Of a DNA stretch of 64,000 nucleotides, positions 6,078 to 57,690 are shown piece after piece. The position numbers and the translations under genes were made by a program. The notes under the pieces were generated by a model. That model had not been told where the DNA came from and did not search any database. It worked only from the letters and a program-made list of their open reading frames with translations. Origin of the DNA: Protoeuglena noctilucae (taxonomy: Eukaryota); the NCBI GenBank assembly GCA_958009085.1, contig OY253673.1, forward strand, positions 1,426,001 through 1,490,000. Reading direction: 5' to 3'. Each line of letters opens with the position of its first letter. The first letter of the stretch is position 1.

Positions 6078-8821
6078 CGTGGCTGCGATGTTTTTGACAT
6101 GTACTGTCGTTGCACTAGGGGCCTGTAGTACGCGCGCCCCCTGCTCTCGTGACACCAGCTTCACACGCTTCCCGCCCCCGTGTTGGGTGCCAAGCACACT
6201 GCTGGGCGCTTATCATACTGCTCGCCCTCTCGGCCATTGCACCCCACGTAACCCCTCTTTCGCACACACACACACGCCCCACTGCCTACCCTATACCACC
6301 ACCACGGCAGGGTAGCACGCTGCGTGGGAATTTGGAGGCCTCTTCGTTAACCGGCCGTTTTTGTTGTCAAGAGAGCAGACGCATTTGGTCTCTTGCGCTC
6401 CTTAGCCTTGAATTCAAGTTCCCCGGGAAACTGCGCGGCATCTAACTATCTGGCTAGCTCAGGTCCGATCCCGTCACTGCATTGCATCTAACGCACCGTG
6501 CTGTGCTGACTACTATGCGAAAGGTCCGAAAGGTCTATCAACAAACCTGCGTGTTCCTAGGCATCGGTGTCCTGACCCTGACTGTGAACCCAATTCCGAA
6601 AAGACAGCCACCCTCTACGCCCACCAAGGCTGCCATCCATGGAGGGCGTGCCACCCAGGGGGGCAGCCGCATGGGCGAATGGCGCTGAGAGATGTCCGCA
6701 TGCATTCTACGCAACAGGTTGGCTGAGTGGGTGGGCACCAGCCTAGGGAGCCAGTGGCAGCTTAGATACCGAGATGGCCTGTGGGGTGCGTGCCGTGGGT
6801 GGCAGGCGGGGAGGCCTCCCCGCGAATGGCGCGGGCGTGCGTCAGCCACGCCACAACGCCGTCCCCTTCCCCCGCAGAGGGAGCGGCGGGGCCATAGCAT
6901 GCGTGACCATAGCCAGGCTCACTTCCCCGCGCGTCTTCCCGGGACACCGTCGATGAGAGGCGCAGCTGGGATGGCCGGAATGCCACGTGCGTGCGTGGGT
7001 CGGGGCCCGACTGGGGCGAGTCATCGGGGAAGTGCCTGGGTGGGGTGGCTTGCAGGGGACGCATGCGGTGGGGATCCCAGGGGAGCTGCAGGGCAGCGGG
7101 GGATGCCGCGAACAGAGGCGAGGCGAGGGCGGCTGGGAACAGAGGCGAGGAGTCGGCTCCGGTGGGAGGGAACAGATGCTGCGACGCGGAGCGCTCGGGG
7201 AGCGTGCTCTGGCTGGGGCCCTGGTCGGGCAAAGCCACCGTCAGGGCGGGGAGGGCTGGGGGCCTGGCGCCGACTGCCAGTGGCCTGGAGAGGGGCAGGG
7301 CGTGCGCGAAGGGGGCGTGCGCGGTGCGAGAGTGGGATTCGCTTGTACTGCGGGAATGGCAGAGGTTGGGAGCGGGTTTATCTCACCACCGCGCGTAGCA
7401 CCCCCACCGCGCATGGCAGGCTGGCTGCCACCCGCCTGTCCAGGTGAGCCCCATCCGCGGCACGCTGGGCATCAGCGGGAGTCGACAGCGACCCATGAGA
7501 CGAAGATTTGGCCGGCATGCGTCCCGGAGACCCCGCTGCCGGGTCGCAAACAACGCTCCGTCGCTGACTGGCCCCACGCCACCCTGCTGTGGCCTCGACC
7601 GCGCTGTCACCCAGCACCGTCGCCCGAGATGCCGTGAGGGCGGGGGAGTCCGTCACGTCCGCCAGGGACTTGGTATTTCGCCAGTGAACGGGGCGGGTCA
7701 TCGTGGGCCCTGCCACCCCACGGGCGTGGATCTGCGGGGGAAGAGAGACAGAGACAGCGTTCTGCTCCTGGTCCTCGGCTACTGATAGTGCAGGGTGGCA
7801 TCACTCGCGTCGACATTCACGGGGAGCCTCGCGCTGGGGCACGTGCCTTGCTCGAGATGCGCCGCAGCGTCCTCGCGAACCGCGCAAACACCCCACCGCG
7901 CGGGCTGACATGTGAACCTGGGGGCGAGGCGCTTGCAAGGCCTTACAGCTATGGAAGGCCCTGCCTCCTCGCATCGAATGCCCCGTTCGCTCCCCGCGTG
8001 CCCCAGCCATGGACCCCACCTGCCCTTGGTGATGCGGCCTCTGCCACCGCGTCCCCCGTGTCATCGCCGGCCTCGACGCAGCGCCCCGTCGGCACCGCGA
8101 GCAGCGCCAGGACGGCCACGGCGTCGTCCTGGAGAGCGCTCGGCTGCACTGGCCTGTCGTGGGGGCCCAGGGTGGTACTGGACGGGACCCCGGCACCTTG
8201 CTCGTCTCTGCCTGTCCCGGTGAGCGTCATGACGGCGGGGTGCACCCAGTGCCCACCCCGGGTTTCCTCAGCTGTCAAACCTTGGCCACGCGCAGCAGGC
8301 TCGAGACCCTGCCCGCCTCGTGGCTGCATCGGTAGACTGCCTGAAGGCGATCCGTACTGCGTCACTACCTATAAAAGCCAATGCGTCGGCCGGGGAGGGT
8401 TGCTGTCAACAGGCGCGGAGCATGGCGTCACTGCAGCGTGTGGGCGAGGGGCATGCATCCAGCAGCGAACTTCGGCTCGGTTGAGAAGCTTCAGCTGATC
8501 ATCACTCATCTACTCAACGCGTTCGCGGGCCAATGAGAGGGACAGGTGCGCGTCTCGCACCAGGAGAGCCCTGGTCAAGACTGTGCGTATCTTGACGGCC
8601 CGAGGGACGAACGATTGCGCTTGCGACTCGCAGGGCCACAAAAGTGACGGTTGCGTCAGGAGAGTTGCTGCTCGGCGTGCAGAGCGTGGGACGCAGCGTT
8701 GACCCTGACTTCTGCCGCAGCCGAGGCACGATATTGCACCAAAACGTCAATTCTGACTCGTGTGAAACAAAATTACGATGCACGATGGCCTGAAGAGCCC
8801 GAAGAGGGCTTTCCACGCGCT

Positions 8822-8940
8822 CACCATCGGGAAAACCGCGAGTCTGGCGTCAGTCGGATCATCCCCGTGATACCCAGGAATCGTGGGGATCATCCCGCTG
8901 ATCCCGGGGTATCAGAGGGATCATCCCAGTGATCCCACTG
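8822..8940 (+). repeat. Left TIR plus GGGATC/GATCCC subterminal repeat array
   Basis: TCATCCCAGTGATCCC (8921-8936) is the exact reverse complement of 14320-14335. GGATCATCCCCGTGAT (8856-8871) is the exact reverse complement of 14292-14307. Confidence 0.85.
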
Positions 8941-10201
8941 ACGACACAGACTGTAATGTAAACCCTCATTGAGCCCAGTGATTCCAGCCGCGCGCCCGAT
9001 CTCCCTGGGGAGGCCGTTTTACGCGGCGCGGTTACGGCCACGGCGCACCCGGGATGCGAGAGGCCGCTGGGAGCAGTTTCGCGGCATTTCGTCGTGGTCG
9101 GGGATCGCGGGGAGCGGGGCCCACTCGGGAGCGCAGCGGCGCCGGAAGCGTTAGCCGAGGCTATCCCGCCGCCTATCTTCCTTCTCGGCCGCGATCAGAC
9201 CTATCTTGATCGCGATCGGACGCATCTTTTGGGCACCCGCGCTCCGGGGCCCGCGCGGCCCGGGGGGCTCCGTTCGGCCCGTAATCGCTCCCTAGCGTAG
9301 CTATTGGTATTTCAATCCCTACGCCGAGGTTACATGACCATCCGTGACGCTCTAGGCAACGCACTCATGCACGCACATGCAGCCGGACTCGGGCGGCCGC
9401 AGGCGCGACGGGAGCGCGCAGCGACCACCGCCAGAGGCACCGACCGCTTGTTCCGGACGCTGCCGCTCCATCGGGGAGCGGCGCTCCGGCACTCGGGCCA
9501 GGCACTCGGGAGATGGTGGCGTGCGCGACTCCGCCGTGCCGACGGCCGCCCCAGGAGTCGATGACCACCGCTGCGGGGCGCCGCGGACGCCAGACGACAG
9601 ACAAGGGGCATGGGTCGGCGGACGAGCCATGGCGGGCCCGGCCAGCACCCGACCAGCGCCGGAACTTGGGACGAGGTGGCACGTGCGCCTGCGTGCTTGT
9701 TAGGCGAAGTTAGAGTCAGTCTCGGGGTGAGAGAGTGCAGGCACGGTGCCAGGTACAGTAAGCAAGTACAGAGATACCACGCTGGCGGACCAGCCCTTCG
9801 TCCCTCCCAGCCAACCAACCCCCCCTTGCACACCTGACCGTGTCGCAGACCCCACCGGTAGCGCAGCAGACCAACCGCGCACCTCGGGGACAGCGACAAT
9901 GTCCGACCTGATCTAGTCATGCGTATGCTGCATCTCACCTCACGGGAGCTGGCCCCTCCCCTCCCCAGCCACGTCAGCACACCTCGCAGATGGCTCAGCA
10001 GCAGGCTGCACTCTCACCCTAGAGAGGGACGATGATCCAGCGCTGTTCGCACCAGCAGCGCCGAGCCTCGCCTGTGCGCGGTGCTGTCGCTGCAGCCCTG
10101 CAATCCACCCCCGCTTGCCTGGAGGACTGACGACCCCTGAGCCTGCCTGACCCACAGAGCGCGCGCTGGACTTTCCTCACCTCCGCTTCCACGCCCTCAC
10201 C

Positions 10202-13200
10202 ATGCCCGCCTTGAACCCTGCATCGCAACCTGCGCTGCAGCTCACCATGCTCGAATGCGACGCGTGTGGAACGCAATTCGATACCCCGGCCAAGCTCGCC
10301 CGGCATCAGCAAAGATGCCCTGCGCTGTGGGGCTGGAGATATGGCGAGGAGAGCCGCCAGGAAGCACCCCGCCCCGCCGCCCCACACGAACACTATGTCT
10401 CTCCGTCTCTGCGAGGCTCGGACGGGCTGGCACGCGACAGCGCCAGCGCGGGACCAGACCAAGAACTGCGGGAGGAAGACGGGACGGCGGACGTTGCTGC
10501 GGGCAGTGATGGCGAGAGCGAAGATGTAGGACTCGCGTGGCTCCACTACGCCGACACGGACGTGGACATGGACGTGGACATTGACTCGGAGAGGGGTGAA
10601 CCGCCCGAGAGCGCCGGAGCGCATGATGCGCCCCAAGAGGACGCTCCTGGAGTCTCCTACCTTCCTGCGCCCGGGGAGTACGAACCGCTGAAGCTGCCGG
10701 AGGACCTGGAGGCATGGCGGGCCAGGAGCAGGGACAGTGACGATGAGTACCTGAGCCAACTTGAAGCAGGGGCGCAGTTCATGGCATCGCTGACGGCAGC
10801 GCATTTCGATTGCTTCGTGAAGCTGCGCCCCGACATCCGCGACGACCTTCTCGACCTCGGGCGCTCCCACCGCACGTTCCACACCTCACTCAACAGCATC
10901 CATGGCCAGTACGAGGTGCGTCACGCCGCGGTGCCGCTTGTGTCGAGGGCCTCGGACGCGGCCGAGGGGGCTGACGCCAACCAGTGCACGCACGGCCTGC
11001 AGGTTTTGCAAGAGGAGGGCAGCACAACCATCATCTACCAAACGATAACGGTGCTGAGGGACATGCTGGTGCACGCGGAGCAGATCAAGCCCAAGACGCT
11101 CGTTAAGTTGATGCGAGACTTCAGCGAGGCACGGGAACGGTCACGCCAGGCGCGGGCGAGACCACATGAGACGCATCCCAGCATCCACGAGAAGCTCACC
11201 TTCTCCCGGGCGAAGGGGTATAGCGACATAGCCGAGGCTGTCGCTGGCAAAGTCCGCCCCGAGCTGCACGCCCGGCTGCTCCTCGTGCCCGTCGCGTACA
11301 GCATCGACGGGGTGGAGATGACCAAGGGCGCATCGACGACGCCCATCCACATGCACCTCCTGTCGCCTTGCAAGGCCGTGAGGACAGGGACGCCGCGAAC
11401 CGTGGCCACCGTCGAGTCCATGAAGGCGAGAGGAGGATTGCCGGCGTTGCAGCCCACACGTCCACCACCACGCCGCGTGTATGAGTTGTCGCTCGAGGCC
11501 CCCGCAGGTGTCCGGGATCACTCCGGGGTCACAGGCAGACCTGAACAACAGAGAGGCCATCCAGCGGCGGCTGGCTGCCGTGGACCGGCAGCTGATTGGC
11601 GTGGCGAGGTCCGGTGGGGTGTGGATGACCCTCCCCGACGTCGGGAGAGTCATCGTCTTTCCCGTCTTGGCGGCGCAGCTGAACGACATGGTGGCCAACT
11701 CGTCCACGCTGGCCGTCAGGTCGTGCCCGCTGTGCCTCCAGGATGACTGCCGCACGCCTCGCACCGTCGCGCTGCATCGCCTCCAGGTGCAGCACATCCT
11801 GCGCTTGAGGAGGGACGTGGGGACGGCCAGGGCCAACGAACAAGCCAGGGAGAGCAAAATTCATCCTGTGGTTCCTGCCCTGTCGTACTGGGACGAGTTC
11901 GGGTCGGACTTGTATCAGGGCCAAGCACCTGACCCCATGCACACCGTGGAACTGGGAATGTTGGGCAAGACTGTTCCCTTCTGCATACTGACCGTCCTCT
12001 ACAACAACGCGGCAGCGGGAGAGTCTGCGACAAAGGCAAACGCCCTCTTGGCTGCGTTCGCATCGATCATTGCGGATGCCAAGGTGAGCTGCAGGTCAGG
12101 CAATGGCGTGCGTTGCCTGCAGTGGCGCCGCAGCTGCTCGGTATTCACCTGGCATGTCCATCGTCGTGTGGGTGGAGCGCAGGCCCCGGCATGGATCCAC
12201 GCCCGTCCGTGGGGCGAGACCTTCCAGATCGTGCTGAGCCTCGTGGACCCGTTTGGGAAGATAAAGGCGTACGAGGCGAGGTTCTTGATCCAAGCTCTGC
12301 CTTTCGCCCTCGTCGAGCTCTTCTCTCGAGGCGAGGCCGACAGTCAGCGCTGCGAGGGCATCGGGAGGAGCTGCGGGTATCGCGATGCGGGCCGGGGAAC
12401 CCCGGGAGTGTTTCCCCACCACCACATCCCTTGCAGAGCCTACGGGCAGCAAAGACGTGCACGACGAGAGGGTTGGGCTCGTGGCCGTAGCCCTGGCATG
12501 CCTTCAGCTCTATGCCGAATGGTCCCTGGAGAGCGCCACCATCGCAGGGGCGCAGGCGGCGGACGCGCAGCTGAATAAGGTCCTCCACGTGAGGCCTTCT
12601 CCAACACCAGCCCCATCGTTCGCTGCCCCTTACTCACTCTGGAAGCCTTGTCGCTGCCGTGTCGCCGCAGGTCGTGCTCAAGACGCTGCTGCGTGGCCAC
12701 GAAATCGTCCGCACGGAGAAGCCCCTCTTCAGCAAGATCGAGAACAGCCAGAAGTGCCACGCGCTTTCGCATTTCCCTGCAGTGGTGGCGAGGAACGGCT
12801 CCATCATGTTGGGCAGCATGAACGACGCCGAGCGCATGCACAAGCCCATTGCCAACGCGCGCACGAACGGCAAGGGCGACGTGCAGGTACAGGCAAGAAG
12901 CGCCGCCCAGCGTAGGCGACGCGGGGAAGCCCACGCAGGACGCGTTTCTTGCGACTCACACGTCTCGATGCGGTCGCACGGCGCTCGACCCGCGTGCCAT
13001 GCTGAGCCGCGCTGGACTGACCCCCGAGCCCTGTCGCAGGCGAGCACCAGCGTCATCTCTCAGAGGGCGGCCTCCGTCATCAAGAGCCGGGCGAGGGCGG
13101 AGCAGCCGGTCCCGTCCCAGCCCGAGGACCAAGTGAAGGGCGTGAAGACCGTCCTGAAGAAGAACGACCTGTGCAGCGAGGGACGCGCGGAAGACTTCGT

Positions 13201-13705
13201 TTCTAAGGCGGACCTCCTGAACGCCCTCAAGGGCGCGGGGCTTCCCTGCCACGTCTTGGGCGAGGTCGCGCTGACCTCCACGGTCGAGATCGGGACGGCC
13301 AGCGGGGACCGGGCCAGGATCGTCGCCACCGACGAGACCCTGTCCTTCGTCGAGTACCTCCCGGACAGGGGCACGCTGCAGACGGGCAGGGTCGTGTGCG
13401 GGGTTGAGGCGAAGACCAGCTCCGGTGCCGGGACCTTCCTCTGCGCCCTGGTGGCCCCGGTGCACAGGGCCCCATGCGACCTGAGGTACCTGTCCAACCA
13501 GTGCTTGTCGTTCTACACCAACCTGGGAGCGCTGCAGCCTCCCCAGCTGTCGCTCCTGGAGCCTGCGGAGGGCGAGGCTCTGAAGTGCGTGCCCCTCCGC
13601 AACCTTCGGCGGCAGCTTCACGCCGTGAAAGTTGCTGGGAAGCTTCTTCACTGCGGCCACGTGCAGCAGGTCTGGGAGCACCACGCCAGCGGCGGCGAGG
13701 AGTAG
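10202..13705 (+). CDS. Plavaka-type DDE transposase with N-terminal C2HC zinc finger
   Basis: Zn finger CDACGTQFDTPAKLARHQQRC. Motifs PVAYSIDGVEMT (D1), PVLAAQLNDMV...SCPLC (D2 plus CxxC), PDPMHTVELG, and KCHALSHF...G...NDAERMHK (E). Six inferred introns: 10916-11002, 11426-11507, 12084-12182, 12331-12436, 12589-12670, 12893-13039. Confidence 0.8.
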
Positions 13706-14247
13706 GTGACCCCAGGAGCTCCCCGATGCTCGCGGTGCCAGATCCCCGACGCCGGCGATGTCATCTGTATCGAGATAATTCTCCGAAGCCAGCCCCGCGC
13801 CCCCATCCGCAGCGCCATGACGGCGGGGACGGCTCACCTCCCATGCAGCAGCCACCTCCGTGCGGCGTAGCCGGCAAAGGCGCCGCAGCTAGCGAGATTT
13901 AGGTCACCTCAATCCATAGGCCAAGCGCTGCGTGCCCGATCGCGGCCGCGGCGGCGGTAGGCCTGGTCGAGCACGGGGACCTCCCCGGCGCCCCCGGGGG
14001 CCCGGCGAGCCCGCGAGCTCCCGCTCATCGCATAGATATGGACATCTCACGTTGAACAGCGGCGGCGCAGGGGAAGCGGACCCCGGATGCGTCGACGGCC
14101 CCCGTCTGCATGCTGGAGCAAGCTTTAGGACGCGAGAGGGGCCTCCGAGGCAGTCATTAGCACCAACTAGCAAATGTGCGGTCTCTCCGCCTCCTCTCGA
14201 GCCCCCTGAGCAAACGCGGGGGCGCGCACGCGCGTCAGGGCCGCGGC

Positions 14248-14402
14248 CCGGGATCGCTGGGATCACTGCGGCAGTGGCGGGGATCGCCGGGATCACGGGG
14301 ATGATCCCGGCGATTCCCGGGGATCACTGGGATGAATCCAGTGATTCCCGCGATCCTTCTGATCCGAGTGACGTCAAATCGCCGGGTTTTCCCGATGACG
14401 TG
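14248..14402 (-). repeat. Right subterminal GGGATC repeat array plus TIR
   Basis: Dense GGGATC(G/A)C / GATCCC / GATTCC units in inverted orientation to 8822-8940. Confidence 0.85.
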
Positions 14403-14602
14403 GCCAATGCATGAAACTAAGGGCAAATTCTGACTCTCAGGGGCCAGGGACGAGCTCCGAGCATCTGTGAAGGAGACACGGGCACCTGCGCACCGGGCTG
14501 CGCGTCTGGGCCGTCCCATCCGCTGGTGCAGCACGCGCGAGCGTAGTGGGGGCTGTTGAATGACGTCGCCTTCGGTGCCTGGCTACTACCGCGAGACCGA
14601 CA

Positions 14603-17600
14603 ATGTCGTCCGACGCGCTGCTTCTCCGCCCAGGTGAGCTGCCCCCGCGGTGTCCCGGCGCACAATGCACCATCGGTACGCAGCACGCAAACCACAGCAA
14701 TGCGTCGCGCACAGGGGCGATGCGGGACAGGAGGGGATGGCGAGGAGGAGCAGCAGGTCCAAAAGAGCCAGGTGTGTGTCGGGGTGTCCCGATGGTCGCG
14801 CTGGCTTCTTGCCCGTTCGCGCTGTGCGCGCTGAACACCGATTCGCGCCTGCGCAGGACCCCGGCTCCGGAATCCCGGCCCAAGAGGAGGAGGGACGTGG
14901 TAGAAGACGATTTGCTAGCCGTGGAGGCAGGGGAGACGCAGGGCGACGCCCCCGGGGCCTGTCGCATCCGCACCCGCCTTCGCAAAAGTGCGGAAGCGTG
15001 CGCCGGGGGGATGGCGCGCGCCGCTCTGGATGAAGCTGGAGACAAGCGGTTTGCGGACGTCCTGGCGTGGCTGAAGCGCACGTCCTCGCGCGCAGTCCCC
15101 TCAGAGGGCCGTGACCTGCATGCGGCAGAGTGGGCCTGCCCCCCGCCCCGCGCCCCGGTAGTCTGCGCGGGCCTCCTCTTCACCGGCCCAGGTAGGCGGC
15201 TGCTTCGCCGCTTACAGCATTTCTGGCTGCGCTCCTTGGCAGTTGCACCGACCCTCGCCTCCGTGCCTTGCTCGCAGTGCCTCTCTCACAGCACATGGAC
15301 ACCCTCCGAGCCCTGCAGTCCTACTTATCTTCCCAAGGGTTCTGCGCAGTCATCGTCAGGCGAGTTGTTTGCAAACACTTGCGCTCAGTGTGACCACACA
15401 CGTGGCATGGCGACTCTCCGTCCGCTCACTGGCACTGGCGCGTGGCCGCAGGAAGGAGGAGGTCTCCAGTCGCCCCGCCGTGGAAGTCCTCGACGACGTC
15501 TGGGCGCGGCTGGCAGAAGAAGAGGGCGCCGCAGGAGGGTCCAGGTGTGCAGGCTCGCAGGCCCCATCGCGGTCGACCATGCGCGGTGCCTGCCATGCTG
15601 GTGACTCCCTGACACCCCGCTTGCACCGGCTCGTTTGCAGAGGCACGCGTCCGGTGGTGATGGTGGACGACGCTGAGGGCTGCGACCCCGCGGCGCTGTC
15701 GGACCTGGGCAGGACGTGGGTGGAGGCACCGGGCGCCACGCGGCCGACGCTGCTGCTGGGGGCACGCACGTCCTCGCGCGCCCTCGCGCACGCCCTCGAC
15801 GACGACGTCAGGTGATTAGGACAGGGGCGGGTCCCGAGTGTGGGCGCGCTACGGACAAGTGCGCTAAGGCGCACGCCGGTTGCATGCCCAGTGTTATGCG
15901 TGCACCCGAGTCCTGCCTTCCAGGTCGGCGCTCTCGTTCACCGAGTTCGCCCTCGCGGCACCCGCACCCTCCCTGGCCGCCGTACTGCGCGGGGCGCTGC
16001 TCTCGGCCCACCCCCTCTTGCCCCTCCTCGACGGCCGCTGCCTCAGCGCAGCGCTCGAGGTCTGCCGGCAGCACGCCCTCGCGCCTGGCACTCTGGCGCG
16101 CGCCTGCCTGGAGGCTGCGGGGAAGCACGCCGTTGGGGGCCCCCTGGCGCCGCTGATGGCCGTGGGGTTGGACGGTGGGTGGGCGGAGGGGCTCATTGCC
16201 GTGGAATGCGAAAGAGATGGGGGGAAGGATGGAGCGGAGGGCCGAGAGGGTGGCAGTGGCGAGCCAGAGGGGGGCAGCAAGCCAGGCAAGGCCGTATCGC
16301 AGGCGGGGCTGTGTAGTGGCATCGGGATGAGCAGCCGGATATTCACTAGCAAGCAGCGCCCATCCCCGCAGGCCCTGGGAGCGGCGAGGCAGGGGCGGTC
16401 GGTCCGCGTCCGCTGCAGGCGGCGATGGCAGGCGTGGCCCAGAGCGCCCTGCTGCCCGCGCTGGGCCGGCGCGAGGAGCCGCGAGAGCTCGAGTCCGCCA
16501 CGGAGGCGATGCTGTCGCGGGGGCGGCGGGCGGTCGCGGGGTGGTGCCTGGCCCTGCGGTGGGCGCACGCGGCGGCGGAGGCGTTGTCGCCCGGGGAGGT
16601 GCGCAGGGAGCTGATGGGAGCAAAACGTAGCGTGGTGTTGTGCAACAATGACGTCATATTCTTGTTCCCGAGTGCCTCCAGGGCCCAGCGACACCCGTGG
16701 GATTCCTGGCAATGGTGGAAGGCGCGGCCCAGCCCGGCAACTGGGACGGCGTCCTCGCTGGGGTGCACGGCCTCAAGGGAGCGCTGGAGGCGGCGGAAGA
16801 TGCGGCGGCGCAGCGTGTGGCGGAGGCGTGGGTGCGAGAGGCGGGAAGGGTGCACGGCGCGACAGAGCTGTGGTGAGGGCCGGAATGCGAAGCCCCGCAC
16901 GCGAAGCCCAAGCCGCTTGCTCCTCTCGCTTCCGTCGTCCTCTTCTCCTCGCTCGCAGCCGGGACGTGGTGGCGCGCGCCGAGGCACTGGCCAGGGGCGA
17001 CCGAGCGGGGGCGGCTGCCGAGGCAGGGCCCTGCGACCCCTCACCCAAGCGCGGGGCCAAGGCGCCCCGCCGCCCGGCCAAGGGAACCGACAGGGACCGC
17101 GGTGCGCAGATGGTCATGCAGGCGAGTGACTGGACACTAGCAGCCTGACCCCCTGGCATGGCATTTGTGTACCTGGCACCGGGGGTCTCACGACGTGACC
17201 CCTCACGGACCGCCCCTCCCAGGTCGCTCCGAGTGCCCAGACCACGGCACCCCGTGCCCCCCCGCACCCCTCCACCCTGGGCGGCCTGGCCGCGTCGCTG
17301 CTCCTCGACACCGCCGTGGCCTTTCTCCAGACGCCCCCCCAGGCGCGGCCCGAATGGTGCGTCAGAGCTTGGGCGTGGTGTGGGCCAGCGATGCACGCTC
17401 GCTGCCCCGGCTGTCGATCCCCAAACTGCGCTGCGGCGGCATGCGAGTTGCCTCCGCCCTGACCCTGCCGCAGTGCCTTTGCGACGTTTGCGGACGCCGA
17501 CTGGTTCCTGCGCCGCCTGCTGTTCAGCGGCCTGGAGCCGGTGCTGGACGAACTGGAGAGGGCGGTGGGGGCGGGCCGCAGCCCAGGGGACGTGGGGCAG

Positions 17601-29200: not shown

Positions 29201-30211
29201 CCAGTCGAGAGCTGGCTGCACAAGGCGAGGCGCGCGTGGCAATGGCACCGGTCCCATGGCTCGAGCGCTCAGCCCCAGCCCCCACTGCAGCTGCACCGTG
29301 CAGGCCCCATGCCACCCAGCGGCCCCTGCCACCTCTGTTGTAGCCCGCAGCTGTACGCTCACCCGGCACCCCTGTTGTGAAGTACCCGCAGCTGTACGCT
29401 CACCCGCACCCCTCTTGCACCCACCCGCAGCTGTACGAGTTCAGTGACTACGTGGAGGGCCGCATCCAGGACGTCTCCGTCAAGGTCGACATCGTGGACC
29501 AGGACCACCTGCCTCCGTGGATATGGAGCAGGGACAGGGACAGGGGCGACGCCGTCAGCAGGCGAGCAGACACTCTAGGGGTGCAGAGGGCTGGGACTGG
29601 CGTGTGTACATCGTCAACCGTGGTCGCCAACCGTGGTCGCCGCGCGTTCTCGTCATGTGTCGATTGTGATCGCTCTCACCACCCCCCATGGCTCCTCTCT
29701 CGCAGTGACGACCGTACCCGCAACGGCACGGCGTCGGCAGCTGAGCCGGCCCCTTCCGACACGTCAGACCGGCGCAAGCGGCCGCGGGGGCACGAGGAGC
29801 GGGGGACCAAGGGCGCGGGGCAGCCGGCGAATGGGGAGTGCGCGGGGGAGTGGGACAGGGACGGGGCGGGTGATGCGGGGGATGGGGAGGGGGTGCATGG
29901 GGCACATGGGCGCGAGCGGGGGGTCAGCGGTGGGAGCGACGGGGTGCCTGGGTCGGCGACGCAGGGCAAGCGGCAGCGTGGCCCGACGGAGGGGGACGAG
30001 GGCGGGGTGGGGGTGGCGGGGGAGGGGGATGACGGGGGGGGGGGGGGACGGGGGTGGGGGGCGGGGCGCGCCGCACGGTGCGGCCAACGCGAGCCTGCAT
30101 TCGAATCTTACGGGGGACCTGCAGGCGCTGGAGGTGGACGGCGACGTGGAGGGTCCCAGGCGGGGGCCACGAGAAGGGGGTGTGGCGGTGGGGAGGGGGG
30201 AGGCGCAGTGA
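26277..30211 (+). CDS. PAP: Canonical nuclear poly(A) polymerase, paralog 2 (tandem duplicate; 3' end may extend to 30351)
   Basis: [79 protein letters not shown]. The C-terminal frame is ambiguous across a poly-G run at about 30034-30047. Confidence 0.92.
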
Positions 30212-47764: not shown

Positions 47765-50700
47765 GTCCCAAGCGCCCTCCGCCCTTCAGGCTGCCCTGGC
47801 TGCCGTCCCCAGCAATGCGACCCAAGGCAGCTCTCCCATGCAAGGGGCCCCCCTGCAAGCACCCCCCATGATGCAAGGGGCCTTCTGGCCAGGGCCCCAG
47901 GCGCAGTCGCAGGCGGGGCAGCCCTTCGCCCCCCCCGGGTCCCAGCCCCTGCCCTTCTCCATGGCCCCACCCGCATACTCGCCCCCTCCCCTCCCCATGC
48001 AAGCAAGCGGACCCCTACCACCGGGCCTCCCTCCACTCCCACCCATGGCCACCTCTTCCGCTCCCTTCCCCGCGTCTGGCGCCCCCGGTGCCTCATCTGC
48101 GGCGTTTGCAGCGTCTGCCACCCTCACCGCCCCAGCCCCGCCCGCCAGCATGCCTTTGGGGGGATTCGCGCCTCCCAGTGAGGGGTTCCCCGGCTTCCCT
48201 CAGACGAGCATGCAGCTAGGGATGTACCCCGGACAGCCAGGGGGATACCCTGGCATGTACCCCGGCCAGTACCCTGGTCAGCCGGGCATGTTCCCGGGGC
48301 AGCCGGGGGGCTACCCCGGACAGCCGGGCGGATACCCGGGTATGTACCCTAACCAGCCGGGTATGTACCCTAATCAGCCTGGGATGTACCCCGGTCAGCC
48401 GGGCGCGCCGGGGGCGGGGCGTCTCCCCGGGCTGGCGGGTGAGGGTGCCGTGGCGACCATGATAACCATGCGTGGCTCTGTGGCAGCAGCGATTCTATGC
48501 ACGCCGCCTCATCTCGCCGCATCACACGCGCTCTGCTTTGCCTTTCCGCAGCCCAGCTCCTGGGCCGTGGCCGCTACCCCGGCCCCTCCGGCCTGGTCCC
48601 CTCGACTCCGCCCGTGCCGCCCCCGCCGGGGGAGACGGGGGAGCATCCCGTGGCCACCACGCAAGGTGAGCGCATGAGTGCGACATGAGTGGGACATAAA
48701 TGGGCATGGGGTGATATGAGTGGGCATGAGTAGAGACGGGGGAGCATCCCGTGGCCACCATGCAAGGTGCGCATGAGTGGGCATGGGTTGCGTGTGGCCG
48801 TCTGCTCGTGTGCGTCTGTGCTACCCCATCTGTGGACTGAGCCCTTTCGTGTCAATCATTGTGGACTAAGCACCCTCTCACCCATCGCACCCATTGCAGT
48901 GCCCCTCGCGGACGAGGCTGAGCGCGAGGAGGCGGAGGCCCAGGCCCAGGCGGAGTTCGAGGATGCGGTGCGGAGGGCCAGGGCAGACGCGGCCAGGGAG
49001 GGACGCAAGGAACAGGCGAGGGGGGAAGAGGGGCAAAATGGTGGCATGTCTTGTGATGCATGGGCGCGTGCAACTGGATGGGGTATATCGTGTCTGATGA
49101 TGCATGAGCGTGCGACTGGATGGGGTGTAACCCTTCAACCTCTCTCCCCTCCCCAGGCGGTCCGCGTGGCCCCCCCCGCGGCGGTTCCCCCCCTGGGCCG
49201 CTCCGCCCCACTCGACGCCCTCACCGACGCCAAGGTGCTGGTGCGGATGCCCGCGGGCCCCACCGAGCAGCGCAGGGCCGCCAGGCGCACGGGTCGCTAC
49301 CGCATGGAGGACTTCGGGCTGTACGTGGGGAGGAAGCCCGCGCATAGGTGGGGGGGGGGTGGGGATGTTATGGCAGGGGATGCCAGTTGGAAGAGGGAGG
49401 GCGTGAGTGTGAGAGATGGGGACATGGCATGCAAATGAACATGGCAGATGACAGAGGGAGAGCGAGAGTGCAGCCGGCATGCCGTCATGCGAAGACGTGC
49501 ACCACTCGCGCCCCCCCTGCATGACGTGACGGGTGTGAGCCAGGCATTGATACCGAGAGAGGGCCTGCCATGCATTATTATCACTCGCATCTCCCGTCTC
49601 CCCAGGTGGGCGTGGGAGGACCGCATGGAGCGCCGCCTGCAGCACGCGGTGTTGGTACACATGAGCGGGCACGTGAAGCCGCCCGGCGACCGCGCCTTGG
49701 GTCTGGACGCGGAGTTGGGGGAGGACGCGGGGGAGAGAGAGCTGCTCATGAGGGGGGGCGCGGTGGTGGGGGAGGGAGGGGACGCGGTGAGGGGGCCAGT
49801 CATGCAAGGGGGGGAAAATCACATCGGTCTGTGTCGTGAGTGAAGTGGCGAAACGCCACCTCGCTTCTGTGCAGCTGCCTCACCCCCCACCTCCCCTGCC
49901 ACCCGTGTAACCCCACACTGCCCCTACCATGCATGGCACCCCCACCCCCCCTGCCACCCCCCCGCAGCCCCCCGTGCTGGGCACCCCCCCCGCCACGGAG
50001 CTCCTCTCCCGCCGCGTGGAGTCCGCGGACCCCTTCCCCTCCGAGCCCTTCGACGCCAACGGTGTGATGGAGCAGGAGGCGGACCCCATCAAGCGCGTGA
50101 ACGGGGCCGTCATGGTGGCGCAGATCAAGAGGGGAGATCCCTTGGCGCCCCACCGGCAGCTGGAGATCGCCGGGCCGTCGTTCATGAGCGCGGGTGCGGC
50201 GGAGTTCCCCCAGTATGCCCTGGAGGTGGAGGTGGGCCGCGTGGAGATGGCAGCACACCCGGCCATGGCCAGGGAGGACTGGCTGGCGGCGCGGCTGAGG
50301 GCCATGCACCGGGACACGCGGCTGCGGGCGGCGGTGGGGCTGGAGAGACACTACTGGGAGGTGAGGGGGGGTGTGGAGAGGCATGGATTGGGTAGGGGAT
50401 CGCCTGGTTAGCGAGAGACACTACTGGGAGGTGAGGGGGGATGGGGTTGCAGAAAGCAGCATGATTGGGAGGTGATCATCGCAGCTGCATAGCACGGTCC
50501 CAGCCCCTCCCTCTTGTCAGCCCAGCTACCCCCCTTGCAGCCAGCACGCACCCCCTCAGCCCATGCCATACCCCTTCCACCCCCCCCAGCGCCTGCTAGC
50601 CTTGGAAGAGGACCTCCTCTCCTCGCGCGAGGCGGTGTTCGCCCTGTCCGTGCGCACCCCCGGGGTGTCGGCCCCGCTGTCATCCACCGTCGAGCGTGCG

Positions 50701-53700
50701 TGCGCGCGCCTGCGTCAATTAGAGGACGACGTGGCAGAGACGCGGCGGGTGATGGAATCCGAGGCACTGCGGCTGCACCGGGCGTGCGCGGCCATGCAGG
50801 CGGTCTATGCGGAGATGGAGGAGGAGCGCAGGCGGCAGGGGCACTGGCTGACGCCCCTGGTACTGCGGGTGGGGGAGGCCGCCCCTGTGGCCAGAGACGA
50901 AAGCGAGGCGTCGCGGAGGCGAGACCTGGACGTGCGCATGGCCACCGCGGAGATCGACGACGTGGTGGGGCTGGACCGGGCGCCGTCGCGGTTCACGCTG
51001 CCGCCGGGTGTCACGGGGGGCGCGCGTGCCAAGCTGAGGCGCACCGAGTCGACAATGGCGGCGTTCGCGCACCGCAAGAAGGAGGCGAGGGATGGCATGT
51101 GTGTGTGACATGGGGTCATGATAGCAGTGGAGTGACGTTGCAATGACAGTGGACTGATTGCTGACGAGAGTTGTGACTCACAGTGGGCGTCAGTGGCTGT
51201 CAGCCTTGACCGCATGCACCCTCGCTCCCACGGTGCCTTGATCGCCCACAGCGTCCCTCTCCAGCCATGACCACATGCACCCCCGCATTCACCCTCACTC
51301 AGCCCCCATCGTTGATCGCCCATCGCCACGTCTCTGTCCCTCCCCCCAGTTGGAGTCTGAGGTGGCGCGCGTGCAGCGTCTGGTGGACAGCGCCCCGGTG
51401 CCCGACCCACGCGACCGAGAGGAGCTGGCGCGGCTGAGGACGGAGCTGGCGGAGATGGGGGACGCGCCGCGGTGAGGGGGGGTTGGGGTGGGGTGGGGTG
51501 GGGAGGGGTGGGGTGGGGGGATGCTGTGACTCTGGGCCTGCCTGGGATCGACTCTATGCTCACGCCCCGCTGCACTGAGACCCTCGCTTGCCACACCCCA
51601 CACTTGTCACACCCCGCTTGTCACCCCCGCACCCGACCTTGTTCGTCACCCCCACACGTGTAGACTGCTTACCTGCCTTGCACTGAACCCTCAAGCTCGT
51701 CACACCACACGACCCCCGCTCTCTACCCACACTGCCACCCCCACCGCCACCCCCACTGCCACCCCCACTGCCACCCCCACTGCTACCCCCACTGCTACCC
51801 CCACTGCCACCTGCTCCCCCCCCCCAGTCGCCTCCCCCGCTCCCCCGAGGCCCAGCACCGTGCGGAGTCCAAGGCGGCGGCCAAGGTGGCGCGCGACGGC
51901 CCCTTCCGCGTCCTGAGGCTGCCGCGCCTGGCACCCGCGCTCTTCTGCAAGGACGACGTGGGGCCGTCCGCCGCCAATCGCGCCGCGTCACTCGCCCGCA
52001 TACGCGTGCAAGGCGAGGAGCATTCACACGCATTGCATCCACGCCTGTTACCGCGAGTTTGCGTATCTAAACCCATTTCCATCTCACTCCCCCACTCTCG
52101 AGGCACTCACGAGCGTCGCATCCACGCCTGTCACCGCGAGTTCCCCTATCTCCCCCTATCTCCGATTCCTCACCCTCACCTGATTACCTGAGCTCTTCCC
52201 CCCCACTCACCCTCACCTAGTCTCCCCCTCCAGTGCGCCTGCTGATCAACGGCCACCCCGTGGCCACCACGGACCCCCACCCCCTGGGCCCCGACTTCAG
52301 CGTCGACATCCGCGACCGGCTGCGCCTGGTGGTGCACCGGTGGCCCGAGGACGCGCGCGCGCAGGTGCTGCTGCGGGGGCGCGTGGTGGGGGAGGCGCGC
52401 ATCTACATCCCGGGTGCAGGGGCCACTCCNNNNNNNNNNNNNNNNNNNNNNNNNNNNNNNNNNNNNNNNNNNNNNNNNNNNNNNNNNNNNNNNNNNNNNN
52501 NNNNNNNNNNNNNNNNNNNNNNNNNNNNNNNNNNNNNNNNNNNNNNNNNNNNNNNNNNNNNNNNNNNNNNNNNNNNNNNNNNNNNNNNNNNNNNNNNNNN
52601 NNNNNNNNNNNNNNNNNNNNNNNNNNNNNGCACCCCCGCTCGATGTCTGTTCTGCTTATATCTACATCATATCTATATCTATATCTACATCTATACAGCT
52701 CACCGCCTCTCTCCCTCTCCTCCCCCCCCCCACCCCCCAGCCTGGTCCAGGCGCACGCCATGCGCGACCACCCCGCATGCAAGGCGCCCCTGATGCCCCC
52801 CGCCCCTCCCCCCGCGGTGGGGGGAGAGCCGCACTGCGTATTTCGCCCTCCTGCGGGTCATGCGGTGGCTGGCCAGCTCCGGGCTGGACCCCCAACGACC
52901 CAAGGAACGCGGACCTGCTGGAGCTGAAGAAGTACAGGCGAGGGATGAGATAGATGGAGGGGTAGTACAGGCGAGGGATGGGAAGGGGGTGGTAGTGGTT
53001 ACGAGGAGTTGAGAAGGAGAGGGATTTCAATGCGGCGTTGTCCGTGGGTGCAAGACAGCCGCTCTCCCTCCCCTCCCCCCCCAGGGAGCTAGAGGTGCAG
53101 CGTGGGGGTGGCGACGGCGTGGACGCCGCTCTGCCCGACGCCGGGTCGCTGCGCCTGCAGCCGGCGAGGGAGGCGGCGGTGGGGAGGGGGGGCGTGTTTG
53201 CGGCCAGGCGCGCCAAGATGCTGCGGCTGCGGTGGGAGGGGGAGACGAGGAGCAGCAAGAGCATGGGGTTCTGCATGCCGGTGAGGGAGTGAGGGGTTGC
53301 AGATCACAACACACAAGGTCGCCCTCCATCCACAGCTCTCTCCCTATCTTTGCTTGCACACCCACCACCACCCCCCTCCCCCATCACAGATCTCGGACGG
53401 CCAGGTGCAGGACCTGGACATCCACCGCCTGCTGAAACGCAGCGGCATCCCCGAGCGCGACCTCCGGCAGCGCGTGGCGGAGGAGCTGGACCTGGCGGCG
53501 CAGGAGCGGCTGGTGCGGAGGGCCATGGACGCGCCCTCGCTCACCGCCCTGCAGGACCGCAGCCGGGCGATTGCAGAGTTCGCATACGACATTCGGCAGG
53601 CGGCGGTGGCCGGCCGCGCCAGCGAGGGCGCCCCCTCCCTGCGCGCCACCGACGACGTCGTGCGGCAGCCGCGCGTCGACCTGCTGCGGCTGGACGTGGG

Positions 53701-56700: not shown

Positions 56701-57690
56701 CCCAGGTGTCGTATGAGGAGCACCGCCACGAGTTCTTCGAGGACCTGGCGCGGAAGCTGGCCGAGGAGGTGCGGGAGGTCATCCGCGACGCACGCCTGGA
56801 TCTGCTCTCCACCACCGCCCACTTCGACGCCACCCTGGACACCAAGCTCAAGGCGAGGATGGGGGGGAGGTGGCGTGGATGACATGCGTGCATGCATTGC
56901 TCTACTGCTTATCACTGCTCGCCTCTGCCTCTGATCCCGCCCATGCTGACCCAAGCACACAGCCCCTCACTTCCCCATCACCATACGCCCTCACCTGCCC
57001 CCACCCTCCATCACCTCCCCTCACCCGCCCTCACCTCCCCGCCCCCCCAGCGCCTCCTCCGCGACGCCCACGCCGACATGGAGAGAGGCTTCGCGTCCCT
57101 CCCCGCGTCGGACCCCCCCCCCGGCGTCGGCACCCTGGGTTCTTCGACCGTGGGGCGGTACCCCCGTGCAGCGGTCGAGAAGATCCAGGGCGACCACCGA
57201 GCGGTGCTGCTGCGGGAGTTCCCATCCTACGACGTGCAGGGGGTACTGCTGCACATGCCATTCGGGGACATCGAGGATAAGCTGGCCGAGGTCATCCTCA
57301 ACACCGGTGAGCGTGTTGGAGAGGGGGAGGGTGTGTATGTGGGTGTGGGGGTGGGTGAGGGTGGGGATGAACGGGGAGAGAGAGATGCGCGTGGGTGCTT
57401 GTGATGAACATGCGAGAGAGGGAGTCGAGAGTGGGGAGTCGCACCGGCTGTCTTCGTGAGGGATGCGTCGTCACTCACCCGCACCGCCCCGCTTCCCCCG
57501 TGCAGACCTGCACATGGCCCTGGGCGAGGGGGTCAAGTTCGGCGTGGACGTCCACTGCCAGCCCATGGGGTGCAGGTTCGCATTCCCCGTCTACATCTAC
57601 CTCGTCCACCTCCGACGCAAGCCCGCACACCTGCCCAGGGAACGGGGCCCTGCGCTGCCGCAGCCGCAGCCGCAGCCGCAACTCCGATAG
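47765..57690 (+). CDS. CC2D2A: Coiled-coil and C2 domain-containing protein 2A (MKS6, ciliary transition zone); true start probably upstream (about 47080-47510)
   Basis: [37 protein letters not shown]2 [13 protein letters not shown]...[19 protein letters not shown]2 [11 protein letters not shown]...FNEVLTLP...INFFDEV...[15 protein letters not shown]-like FVSHVPF...DIWMT...[16 protein letters not shown], and WANVQP. Spans an assembly gap. Confidence 0.9.
48222..48402 (+). repeat. Coding tandem repeat (G/M)YP(G/N)QPG, about 9 units
   Basis: Translates as [61 protein letters not shown]. Confidence 0.9.
51730..51812 (+). repeat. Intronic 12-bp minisatellite (CACTGC(C/T)ACCCC)n
   Basis: About 6-7 tandem copies are directly visible. 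Confidence 0.85.
52430..52629. other. Assembly gap (200 N) inside CC2D2A
   Basis: Run of N characters. Confidence 1.
52657..52697 (+). repeat. (ATATCT/ACATCT)n microsatellite
   Basis: tatatctacatcatatctatatctatatctacatctata is directly visible. Confidence 0.85.

What the first reader, a model, noticed from the sequence alone, without database searches (positions are those of the whole stretch)
8822..14402. Apparently complete Plavaka-like DNA transposon with definable ends in an alga
Seen: an uninterrupted spliced transposase with a C2HC finger, SIDG / LNDM...CPLC / PDPMH...LG / KCHALSH...AERMHK motifs and a beta-rich C-terminal domain, between ~40-bp imperfect TIRs starting CAC. Established knowledge: Plavaka transposases were described mainly from basidiomycete fungi, belong to the CMC/EnSpm-related DDE group, and are often linked to TET/JBP genes. 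Inference: a potentially autonomous algal member whose termini link Plavaka to CACTA-type architecture. Its GC-AG introns suggest long residence in this host.
Basis: partly seen in the sequence, partly recalled or inferred. Interest (0 to 1): 0.75.

Follow-up and report, generated by a model that had tools for sequence, protein, structure and literature searches.

The report
Active Plavaka-type jumping gene, marine eukaryote
This is a real, intact-looking and recently multiplied cut-and-paste DNA transposon of the Plavaka type in a GC-rich marine eukaryote; its ends are ordinary Plavaka ends rather than CACTA-like ones, and such elements have already been reported from algae.

Summary
The element is real, but its ends are 8825-14397 (5573 bp), not 8822-14402. 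In public runs, contigs of other copies stop matching at exactly these places. In one single-organism run the element has about 30 times the k-mer depth of its flanks, with most laid contigs at least 99% identical.

The termini are CATCGGGAAAACC / GGTTTTCCCGATG, flanked by a 2-bp duplication (AC). This is the published PlavakaB pattern (CATCA..TGATG, 2-3 bp duplication).

Inside lies one six-exon gene of 988 or 993 codons. It carries the full D, D, E + C(2)C + H + H(3)H signature of the EnSpm/Mirage/Chapaev/Transib/Plavaka (CMCT) group. Its only Pfam hit is Plavaka, below threshold (E 0.0099).

The protein has no other detectable sequence relative in the three large protein searches, so a phylogeny was not possible.

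Splicing is unproven. Both proposed GC-AG introns have frame-keeping GT-AG alternatives.

Plavaka elements were already reported from chlorophytes, red algae and streptophyte algae in 2025-2026.

Verdict: a divergent new member of a known kind, probably autonomous and recently active. The CACTA link and the "long residence" inference are not supported.

The parts
8823..8824 (.). left copy of the 2-bp target-site duplication (AC)
   Evidence: AC directly abuts both ends. The end positions were fixed by other copies. This rests on one copy only, so the chance of a 2-bp match is 1 in 16.
8825..14397 (+). whole transposon, 5573 bp
   Evidence: The X9 contig matches exactly 8825-14397. X3 loose ends lie at 8818-8825 and at 14398. 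X3 element contigs have depth 1179-1234 against 41 and 33 for the flank contigs.
8825..8861 (+). left terminal inverted repeat, begins CATCGGGAAAACC
   Evidence: 13 nt are identical to the right end, and the ends match at 33 of 39 aligned columns.
8850..8937 (+). left subterminal array, three units at 31-bp spacing, core GG(G)ATCATCCC..GTGATCCC; likely transposase binding sites
   Evidence: family D2: 8850, 8881, 8912; 8856-8937, period 31, 2.7 copies. The binding role is inferred.
10202..11425 (+). exon 1: start codon, C-x2-C-x12-H-x3-C finger (10256-10318), acidic stretch, first catalytic D in SIDG (11300-11311). The exon may instead end at 11377 (GT donor).
   Evidence: zf-C2H2 hits are only E 0.037-0.061.
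11508..12083 (+). exon 2: second catalytic D in LNDM (11679-11690), CPLC (11724-11735), DPMH (11931-11942)
   Evidence: Pfam PF18759 Plavaka, E 0.0099, 15.6 bits, profile positions 198-317 of 325. GC3 is 0.83-0.90 over the first ~270 nt of the exon and 0.70-0.77 in the later bins, highest of the three frames throughout.
12183..12330 (+). exon 3 (may extend to 12376 if the GT donor at 12377 is used)
   Evidence: Intron 2 (12084-12182) is GTGAGC..CAG.
12437..12588 (+). exon 4 (starts at 12450 in the all-GT model)
12671..12886 (+). exon 5: H(3)H in HALSH (12758-12772) and catalytic E in AERMH (12827-12841), 20 residues apart
   Evidence: GC3 is 0.83-0.97.
13040..13705 (+). exon 6: C-terminal 221 residues of unknown fold, then stop codon
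   Evidence: GC3 0.77-0.97. No Pfam hit. The AF2 model has mean pLDDT 46.2.
14248..14350 (-). right subterminal array of the same motif in inverted orientation
   Evidence: D2, D3, I1-I3; 14289-14350, period 31, 2.0 copies
14360..14397 (-). right terminal inverted repeat, ends GGTTTTCCCGATG
14398..14399 (.). right copy of the 2-bp target-site duplication (AC)

Best explanation
This is a 5573-bp autonomous-looking cut-and-paste DNA transposon of the Plavaka (PlavakaB-like) lineage of the CMCT group (EnSpm/CACTA, Mirage, Chapaev, Transib, Plavaka). It has multiplied recently in its host.

SHOWN
- Exact ends at 8825 and 14397.
- Termini CATCG..CGATG and a 2-bp AC duplication.
- 31-bp-period subterminal repeats at both ends.
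- A six-exon open reading of 988-993 codons with all CMCT catalytic and zinc-ligand residues in order.
- About 30-fold depth over the flanks in one organism's run, with near-identical copies.
- Internally deleted derivatives.

INFERRED MECHANISM
- The transposase is made from a spliced mRNA.
- It binds the subterminal GG(G)ATCATCCC-type repeats, perhaps through its N-terminal zinc finger, and pairs the two ends.
- Its RNase-H-like DDE site, braced by a C2-H2 zinc site as in RAG1 and Transib, cuts at the CATCG termini.
- It reinserts across a 2-bp staggered cut, which gives the 2-bp duplication.
- Interrupted gap repair after excision produces the internally deleted copies.
For: ENDS AND COPY NUMBER
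- The X9 contig matches 8825-14397 exactly, followed by 72 unrelated letters.
- X3 contigs leave the window at 8818, 8820, 8821 and 8825 (two contigs) on the left, and at 14398 on the right.
- X3 flank contigs have depth 41 and 33. Element contigs have depth 1179-1234.
- Of 73 X3 contigs laid, 61 are at least 99% alike and 12 are 95-99% alike.
- The window copy differs from the majority at only 4 places (8855, 9237, 11691, 13742).

TERMINI
- The 13-nt ends are identical.
- The Kojima 2025 main text gives PlavakaB as CATCA..TGATG with 2- or 3-bp duplications (passages).
- In that paper's supplement, 29 of 29 PlavakaB-type 5' ends that I saw begin CATC: 27 CATCA, 1 CATCT, 1 CATCG.
- One of them, PlavakaB-1_RuGr (CATCAGGAAAACCG), matches this element's first 14 nt at 13 positions.

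PROTEIN
- The only Pfam family found for any exon at E up to 10, apart from sub-threshold zinc-finger/DUF7128 hits (E 0.037-0.17) and one NETI hit (E 0.18), is PF18759 Plavaka. It scores E 0.0099 on exon 2 and E 0.0083 on a database copy.
- D, D, E plus two Cys and three His occur in the order Kojima's Figure 4 legend and text describe for CMCT.
- Spacings are D2 to C 13 residues and H to E 20 residues.

DELETION DERIVATIVES
- An X3 joint links 10018 to 13278 at single-copy depth 35.
- Database proteins from other copies lack roughly 12029-12151 and roughly 12350-12639.

CODING SIGNAL
- Third-position GC follows the exon frames.
Against: - The Plavaka hit is below Pfam's cut-off (15.6 against 26.3 bits). 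It covers only profile positions 198-317 of 325, and the exon holding the first D gave no hit.
- No other relative was found. phmmer against 1.84 billion representatives returned only the element's own cluster and one spurious repeat protein. Three word-indexed searches returned nothing.
- I could not submit the spliced protein to the profile, fold or tree tools, so no phylogeny places it inside Plavaka.
- The 2-bp duplication rests on this one copy.
- Splicing is not shown. The contigs from two RNA libraries are unspliced and may be DNA carry-over.
- The window copy has V where the majority of copies have M, directly after the LNDM motif that holds the second catalytic D.
- No empty site or insertion polymorphism was seen at this locus. 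X3 holds the occupied site.
Confidence: 0.75

Rival explanations
1. It is a CMCT-group transposon but not Plavaka. It would be a separate, so far unnamed lineage (or a Mirage-like one, which also makes 2-bp duplications by my recall) whose termini resemble Plavaka's because the whole group shares CA..TG-type ends.
For: - The Pfam Plavaka score is sub-threshold and partial.
- No sequence relative was found among 1.84 billion representatives or in three further searches.
- Kojima notes that CMCT lineages share CA..TG ends and 2-5 bp duplications (passage).
Against: - Similarity to the fungal PlavakaB ends goes well beyond CA..TG: 13 of 14 nt match one family, and the shared pattern is CATC + purine-rich + AAAAC.
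- Plavaka is the only transposase family Pfam reports, and Transposase_21 is not reported.
Confidence: 0.17
2. The element would be a CACTA-like element spanning 8822-14402 with ends beginning CAC, bridging Plavaka and EnSpm/CACTA architecture.
For: CAC precedes the shared 13-mer on both ends if a 2-nt indel is allowed.
Against: - Other copies end at 8825 and 14397 or 14398, not at 8822 and 14402.
- With ends at 8822 and 14402 the flanking triplets are GCT and GCC, so there is no duplication.
- With ends at 8825 and 14397 there is a clean AC duplication and a PlavakaB-type terminus.
Confidence: 0.03
3. The family is real, but this gene model is not a working transposase. The introns would not be removed as proposed, or the copy would be disabled, so the near-identical copies would be moved by another source or arise from segmental duplication.
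For: - There is no spliced RNA evidence. The RNA-library contigs are collinear with the DNA.
- The two structure models are unusable (pLDDT 46.2 and 34.7).
- The window copy has a private V-for-M change next to the second catalytic D.
Against: - Two independent splice models give a stop-free reading of about 990 codons across six frame-switching segments, with all eight signature residues. That is unlikely in decayed sequence.
- The GC3 periodicity tracks each exon.
- Other copies have different flanks on both sides, which rules out simple segmental duplication.
Confidence: 0.12

Closest known systems
PlavakaB DNA transposons of Agaricomycotina fungi (Kojima 2025, Biology 14:1741, PMC12730594; passages and supplement read)
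   Same: - Termini: CATC + purine-rich + AAAAC, with 13 of 14 nt identical to PlavakaB-1_RuGr.
- A 2-bp target duplication.
[quoted passage not shown]
- The only Pfam hit is Plavaka.
   Different: - The fifth base is G rather than A. This was also seen once among the fungal ends, in PlavakaB-1_AuCo.
- The host is a GC-rich marine eukaryote, not a fungus.
- At 5.6 kb it is shorter than the fungal consensus sequences seen, which run about 6.5-24 kb by the 'cut' lengths.
- It carries no TET/JBP gene.
- The protein is so divergent that the Pfam score is below threshold.
Plavaka / 'EnSpm-Plavaka' elements reported in algae: Auxenochlorella (bioRxiv 10.1101/2025.02.07.637104), Bostrychia and other red algae (bioRxiv 10.1101/2025.02.11.637652), Spirogyra survey of Archaeplastida (Plant Cell 2026, PMC13519894); passages only
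   Same: - Cut-and-paste elements classed as Plavaka on transposase homology, termini and duplication length.
- Reported as potentially active in a green alga.
   Different: - I could not compare sequences, because none of those proteins was reachable with the tools.
- The red-algal elements are giant (17-19 kb) and carry three accessory genes, while this one has a single gene.
EnSpm/CACTA (CMC superfamily; Pfam Transposase_21)
   Same: - DDE with C(2)C and H(3-4)H.
- CA..TG-type ends.
- Subterminal repeat arrays.
   Different: - The ends are not CACTA..TAGTG.
- The duplication is 2 bp, not 3 bp.
- No Transposase_21 hit.
Transib transposase / RAG1
   Same: - The same order of catalytic and zinc-ligand residues.
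- The H-to-E spacing of 20 residues equals that between RAG1 H942 and E962 (RAG1 numbering recalled, not checked here).
   Different: - Transib makes 5-bp duplications (recalled).
- No detectable sequence match to any solved chain.

Membership tests
[quoted passage not shown] | [quoted passage not shown] | tested here: met
   SIDG, LNDM, CPLC, DPMH, HALSH and AERMH are collinear in both splice models. The definition comes from Kojima 2025 passages and the Figure 4 legend. This is motif matching by eye, not a scored alignment.
[quoted passage not shown] | 5'-CA..TG-3' termini and 2-5 bp target duplications | tested here: met
   CATCG..CGATG termini and a 2-bp AC duplication
Plavaka, sublineage PlavakaB | Termini 5'-CATCA..TGATG-3' | tested here: met
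   The ends are CATCG..CGATG, with one mismatch at base 5. Of 29 PlavakaB-type 5' ends seen in the supplement, 29 start CATC and one starts CATCG. The best match is 13 of 14 nt.
Plavaka, sublineage PlavakaB | 2- or 3-bp target-site duplication | tested here: met
   A 2-bp AC duplication at this copy. Only one copy has both flanks visible.
Plavaka, sublineage PlavakaB | Transposase matches the Plavaka profile (Pfam PF18759) at the curated cut-off | tested here: inconclusive
   It scores 15.6-15.8 bits (E 0.0099 / 0.0083) against a cut-off of 26.3, on exon 2 alone. The spliced protein could not be submitted, so the full-length score is unknown.
Plavaka, sublineage PlavakaB | Transposase groups with Plavaka in a CMCT phylogeny | not testable with these tools
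   No Plavaka reference proteins could be obtained. The searches returned none.
EnSpm/CACTA | CACTA..TAGTG termini and 3-bp duplication | tested here: not met
   The ends are CATCG..CGATG. The 3-bp flanks CAC and ACG differ.
EnSpm/CACTA | Transposase_21 (PF02992) domain | tested here: not met
   No hit at E up to 10 on any exon
TET/JBP-carrying Plavaka | A TET/JBP dioxygenase gene inside the element | tested here: not met
   10 further ORFs of the element have no Pfam family at E up to 0.1

The most novel reading that the evidence does not exclude
The element represents a deep, lineage-restricted branch at the base of or beside Plavaka. By sequence it is invisible to searches of billions of proteins. 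It is transposing now in a marine picoeukaryote and has recently crossed between two differently labelled organisms: run X9, labelled organism B, holds a copy identical to organism A's majority sequence at all four variable sites but none of this locus's flanks.
Probability: 0.15. Interest if true: 0.55.

Novelty: new member of a known kind. Interest (0 to 1): 0.3.

Why it matters
Taken at face value it adds one well-delimited, probably live Plavaka-type element to a lineage where such elements have only just begun to be catalogued. It also shows that the PlavakaB terminal sequence is conserved between fungi and a GC-rich marine eukaryote, even though the transposases have diverged almost beyond recognition.

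Practical value:
- A compact single-gene element with exact ends could serve as an insertional-mutagenesis or transgenesis tool for its host.
- Its roughly 30 near-identical copies are a source of assembly breaks and strain polymorphism.

It does not change the picture of how Plavaka relates to CACTA elements.

Tried and rejected
- WHOLE-GENOME COPY SEARCH. No genome is held for this window.
- OTHER COPIES OR MITES IN THE 64-KB WINDOW. None found. The best blastn matches are 19-34 nt at E 0.086 or worse, and tblastn of the six exons gives E 0.56 or worse.
- SEQUENCE RELATIVES.
  - phmmer of 11508-12329 against 1.84 billion representatives gave 2 hits: the element's own cluster, and a tandem-repeat protein that is spurious on inspection.
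  - Word-indexed searches of 'longer' proteins with exon 2, exon 1 and exons 5-6 gave none. The tool itself warns this is weak evidence.
- METAGENOME AND VIRAL COLLECTIONS. The terminal pattern gave 0 matches. The exon-2 protein gave 106 and 5 pattern matches, none confirmed.
- ESM ATLAS. Recognition was 2063, below the level at which hits mean much. The nearest clusters were phage hypothetical and capsid proteins, which I treat as noise.
- PDB SEQUENCE SEARCH. Exon 2 gave 4 hits at E 0.18 or worse, all irrelevant. Exon 5 gave none.
- AF2 SINGLE-SEQUENCE MODELS. Exon 6 had mean pLDDT 46.2 and exon 2 had 34.7. Both are too poor for a fold search, so none was run.
- RNA RUNS X10 AND X11. Each gave a collinear, unspliced contig (8875-14397 and 8978-14397) with no flanks laid. 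This cannot show transcription or splicing.
- EMPTY SITE. No joint across 8824/14398 in the four runs laid.
- EARLIER FINDINGS OF THIS SCAN. Nothing on this genome or this sequence. A word search returned only unrelated elements in other genomes.
- SPIROGYRA PAPER SUPPLEMENT, which should list which chlorophytes carry Plavaka. It could not be read.
- REJECTED READINGS. CACTA-type ends, a TET/JBP association, and a second gene in the 1.4-kb 5' region or the 0.7-kb 3' region.

Full report
WHAT IS THERE

The flagged region lies in GC-rich (0.62-0.70) eukaryotic DNA. Its two ends are inverted copies of one another.
- The first 13 nt, CATCGGGAAAACC, occur exactly at 8825-8837 on the + strand and at 14385-14397 on the - strand. 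With up to 2 mismatches there are 4 matches in the window against 0.80 expected, and 0 of 100 shuffles reached 4.
- A global alignment of the ends gives 33 matches in 39 columns.
- Just inside each end lies an array with a 31-bp period: 8856-8937 with 2.7 copies, and 14289-14350 with 2.0 copies (families D1-D3 and I1-I3).
- The core of the array, GG(G)ATCATCCC, appears in opposite orientation at the two ends.
- Of the window's 38 GGGATC or GATCCC hexamers, 10 lie in the two terminal 160-bp stretches.

WHERE THE ELEMENT REALLY ENDS

No genome is held for this window, so I used public sequencing runs. Of the 24 rows listed, 19 hold the stretch or part of it, from 9 studies, mostly marine metagenomes plus coded single organisms. 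I laid four runs on 7800-15400.
- In X9 (organism B) one contig matches exactly 8825-14397 and then continues for 72 letters unlike the window.
- In X3 (organism A) contigs run off into unrelated sequence before 8818, 8820, 8821 and 8825 (two contigs), and after 14398.
- The X3 contigs that carry the window's own flanks have depth 41 and 33. The contigs covering the element have depth 1179-1234, a ratio of roughly 29-37.
- The tool warns that summed depth is not a copy number. Here, though, the figures are for single contigs of a run labelled with one organism, so I read them as roughly thirty copies.
- Of 73 X3 contigs laid, 61 are at least 99% alike and 12 are 95-99% alike.
- The window copy differs from the majority sequence at only four places: 8855, 9237, 11691 and 13742.

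The element is therefore 8825-14397 (5573 bp), not 8822-14402. Directly outside both ends stands AC (8823-8824 and 14398-14399), which is a 2-bp target-site duplication.

The 2-bp duplication rests on this one copy, so a chance match has odds of 1 in 16. A second copy may have AG on both sides, but the left and right flanks cannot be paired.

THE GENE

Stop-to-stop ORFs, third-position GC per frame and an enumeration of frame-keeping splice sites give one six-exon gene on the + strand, from ATG 10202 to the stop codon at 13703-13705.
- Third-position GC is 0.77-0.97 in the proposed frame from about 10800 in exon 1 onward and in exons 2 (0.83-0.90 over its first ~270 nt, 0.70-0.77 in the later bins), 5 and 6. 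It is 0.73-0.77 in exon 3 and 0.67-0.80 in exon 4. In the acidic first ~600 nt of exon 1 the bins are lower and noisier (0.57-0.83).
- Host ORFs elsewhere in the window show 0.80-0.94.
- Three introns are plain GT-AG: 12084-12182, 12589-12670 and 12887-13039.
- The other two are ambiguous. Intron 1 is either 11426-11507 (GCGAGA donor) or 11378-11507 (GTGAGG donor). Intron 3 is either 12331-12436 (GCGAGG donor) or 12377-12449 (GTATCG donor).
- Both full models are open, at 993 and 988 codons.
- RNA could not decide between them. The two metatranscriptome runs gave collinear, unspliced contigs that stop at the element's end, as DNA carry-over of a 30-copy repeat would.

WHAT THE PROTEIN IS

- A C-x2-C-x12-H-x3-C finger at residues 19-39. 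The zf-C2H2 hits are only E 0.037-0.061, below cut-off.
- SIDG, LNDM and CPLC, with CPLC 13 residues after the second D.
- DPMH, HALSH and AERMH, with the E 20 residues after the second H.

According to passages and a figure legend of Kojima 2025 (PMC12730594), D, D, E with C(2)C, H(3-4)H and one further H is the signature shared by EnSpm, Mirage, Chapaev, Transib/RAG1, Plavaka, ESTA and Lanisha, the 'CMCT' clade.

Pfam, scanned exon by exon, reports one transposase family only: PF18759 Plavaka. It scores E 0.0099 and 15.6 bits against a cut-off of 26.3, covering profile positions 198-317 of 325 on exon 2. On a database copy it scores E 0.0083. Transposase_21 is not reported.

Beyond that the protein is an orphan.
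- phmmer of 11508-12329 against 1.84 billion representatives found only its own cluster (98% identity) and a spurious tandem-repeat protein.
- Three word-indexed searches found nothing.
- Metagenome and viral scans found nothing.
- The ESM Atlas gave noise.
- Two single-sequence AlphaFold models were unusable, with pLDDT 46.2 and 34.7.
- I could not hand the spliced protein to the profile, fold or tree tools, so its full-length Pfam score and its place in a phylogeny are unknown.

THE TERMINI SETTLE THE FAMILY BETTER THAN THE PROTEIN DOES

Kojima 2025 states that PlavakaA families end TGT..ACA with 2-bp duplications, and that PlavakaB families end CATCA..TGATG with 2- or 3-bp duplications (passage). 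In that paper's supplement I saw the 5' ends of 29 PlavakaB-type consensus sequences (6, 23).
- All 29 begin CATC: 27 CATCA, 1 CATCT and 1 CATCG.
- Many continue with a purine-rich pair and AAAAC.
- PlavakaB-1_RuGr begins CATCAGGAAAACCG, which matches this element's CATCGGGAAAACCG at 13 of 14 positions.
- The PlavakaA ends shown (TGTCGGAAAAATCC) share the inner TCGG-AAAA-CC pattern.

The termini and the 2-bp duplication are thus ordinary PlavakaB features. They do not link Plavaka to CACTA architecture. EnSpm/CACTA proper fails here on termini, on duplication length and on the Pfam domain.

SIGNS OF ACTIVITY

- Copy number is high and the copies are near-identical.
- X3 holds a joint from 10018 to 13278 at single-copy depth 35, which is an internally deleted derivative.
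- Database proteins called on other copies lack roughly 12029-12151 (P0001, P0003) and roughly 12350-12639 (P0004).
- Such internal deletions are the usual by-product of interrupted gap repair after excision of cut-and-paste elements. This is established knowledge, and the link here is inferred.
- No other copy or miniature derivative lies in the window.
- No empty site was seen at this locus.
- The element carries no second recognisable gene. 10 further ORFs have no Pfam family, so there is no TET/JBP gene.

HOW IT MOST LIKELY WORKS

The anatomy above is shown. The mechanism below is inferred from what is known of DDE transposases of this group.
- The spliced mRNA gives a protein of about 990 residues.
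- Its N-terminal finger and the following helical region recognise the 31-bp-spaced subterminal repeats and bring the ends together.
- The RNase-H-like DDE centre, held by the C2-H2 zinc site as in RAG1/Transib, cleaves at CATCG/CGATG.
- The excised element integrates across a 2-bp stagger.
- The window copy has V instead of the majority M directly after the LNDM motif (11691). Whether this matters is unknown.

HOST AND CONTEXT

The neighbours are split eukaryotic genes: sulfate permease, TPR, NmrA-like, poly(A) polymerase, borealin, and the cilium proteins TMEM231 and CEP76. With the marine runs, this fits a flagellate marine picoeukaryote. That it is an alga was not testable here.

The element sits about 200 bp upstream of the next long ORF (14564 onward). 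The reconstructed empty site would read ...GCTCACGTGGCC...

NOVELTY

A full-text search for 'Plavaka' found 20 papers. Passages read in three of them already report such elements in algae.
- 'EnSpm-Plavaka' families, potentially active, in the green alga Auxenochlorella.
- Giant Plavaka elements dominating the red alga Bostrychia.
- A statement that Plavaka occurs in red algae, chlorophytes and streptophytes and was probably present in the Archaeplastida ancestor, in the Spirogyra genome paper. The supplement that should list the species could not be read.

An algal Plavaka is therefore not new. What remains notable is the conservation of the terminal sequence across kingdoms next to an almost unrecognisable transposase, and the apparent current activity.

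VERDICT

This is a divergent new member of a known kind.
- Confidence 0.75 that it is a PlavakaB-type element.
- About 0.9 that it is a CMCT-group cut-and-paste transposon.
- Interest 0.3.

Noticed in passing
window 8825-14397, run X9: A run labelled with a different organism (B) holds a full copy that agrees with organism A's majority sequence at all four variable sites. It holds none of this locus's flanks, and its right flank (30 letters shown) is only about 43% GC. Possible explanations are low-coverage presence of the same organism, a low-GC genome compartment, or transfer between organisms.
   Followed up: no
window 8818-8824, loose ends: Three other copies in X3 keep matching the window for 4, 5 and 7 bases beyond the element's left end (…TCAC, …CTCAC, …CGCTCAC). 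That is more than chance would give for about 30 copies and hints at a target-site preference. The empty site of this copy would contain CACGTG.
   Followed up: no
window 8875-14397, runs X10 and X11: Metatranscriptome libraries contain the whole element as an unspliced contig ending exactly at the element's right end. The source could be DNA carry-over or unspliced read-through RNA, and the two cannot be told apart from contigs.
   Followed up: partly
window 11691: The window copy has G (Val) where all four laid runs and the database proteins P0001, P0003 and P0004 have A (Met). This is the residue directly after the LNDM motif that holds the second catalytic Asp.
   Followed up: partly
window 52431-52629: A run of N (an assembly gap) causes the apparent GC dip at 52-53 kb in the composition profile.
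   Followed up: yes
window 52930-52985: GTACAGGCGAGGGATG occurs twice, 32 nt apart, just after a coding-looking stretch. CAG|GCGAGG resembles the two candidate GC donors inside the transposon, so GC donors may be common in this host.
   Followed up: no
window 56343-56879 and 59633-59860: ORFs with CEP76-peptidase-like (E 2.6e-05, 24.8 bits, just under the family's 27.8-bit cut-off) and TMEM231 (E 1.6e-06) matches. These are cilium and transition-zone genes, so the host builds a flagellum.
   Followed up: no
window 29344-29437, 48336-48403, 51725-51811: Short tandem arrays with periods 41, 21 and 12 (the last with 7.2 copies of ACCCCCACTGCC). Their meaning is unknown.
   Followed up: no
window 62207-64000: Long overlapping ORFs on both strands with strong GC and AT skew and only weak coiled-coil-type Pfam hits. 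This is probably one low-complexity gene read in several frames.
   Followed up: no
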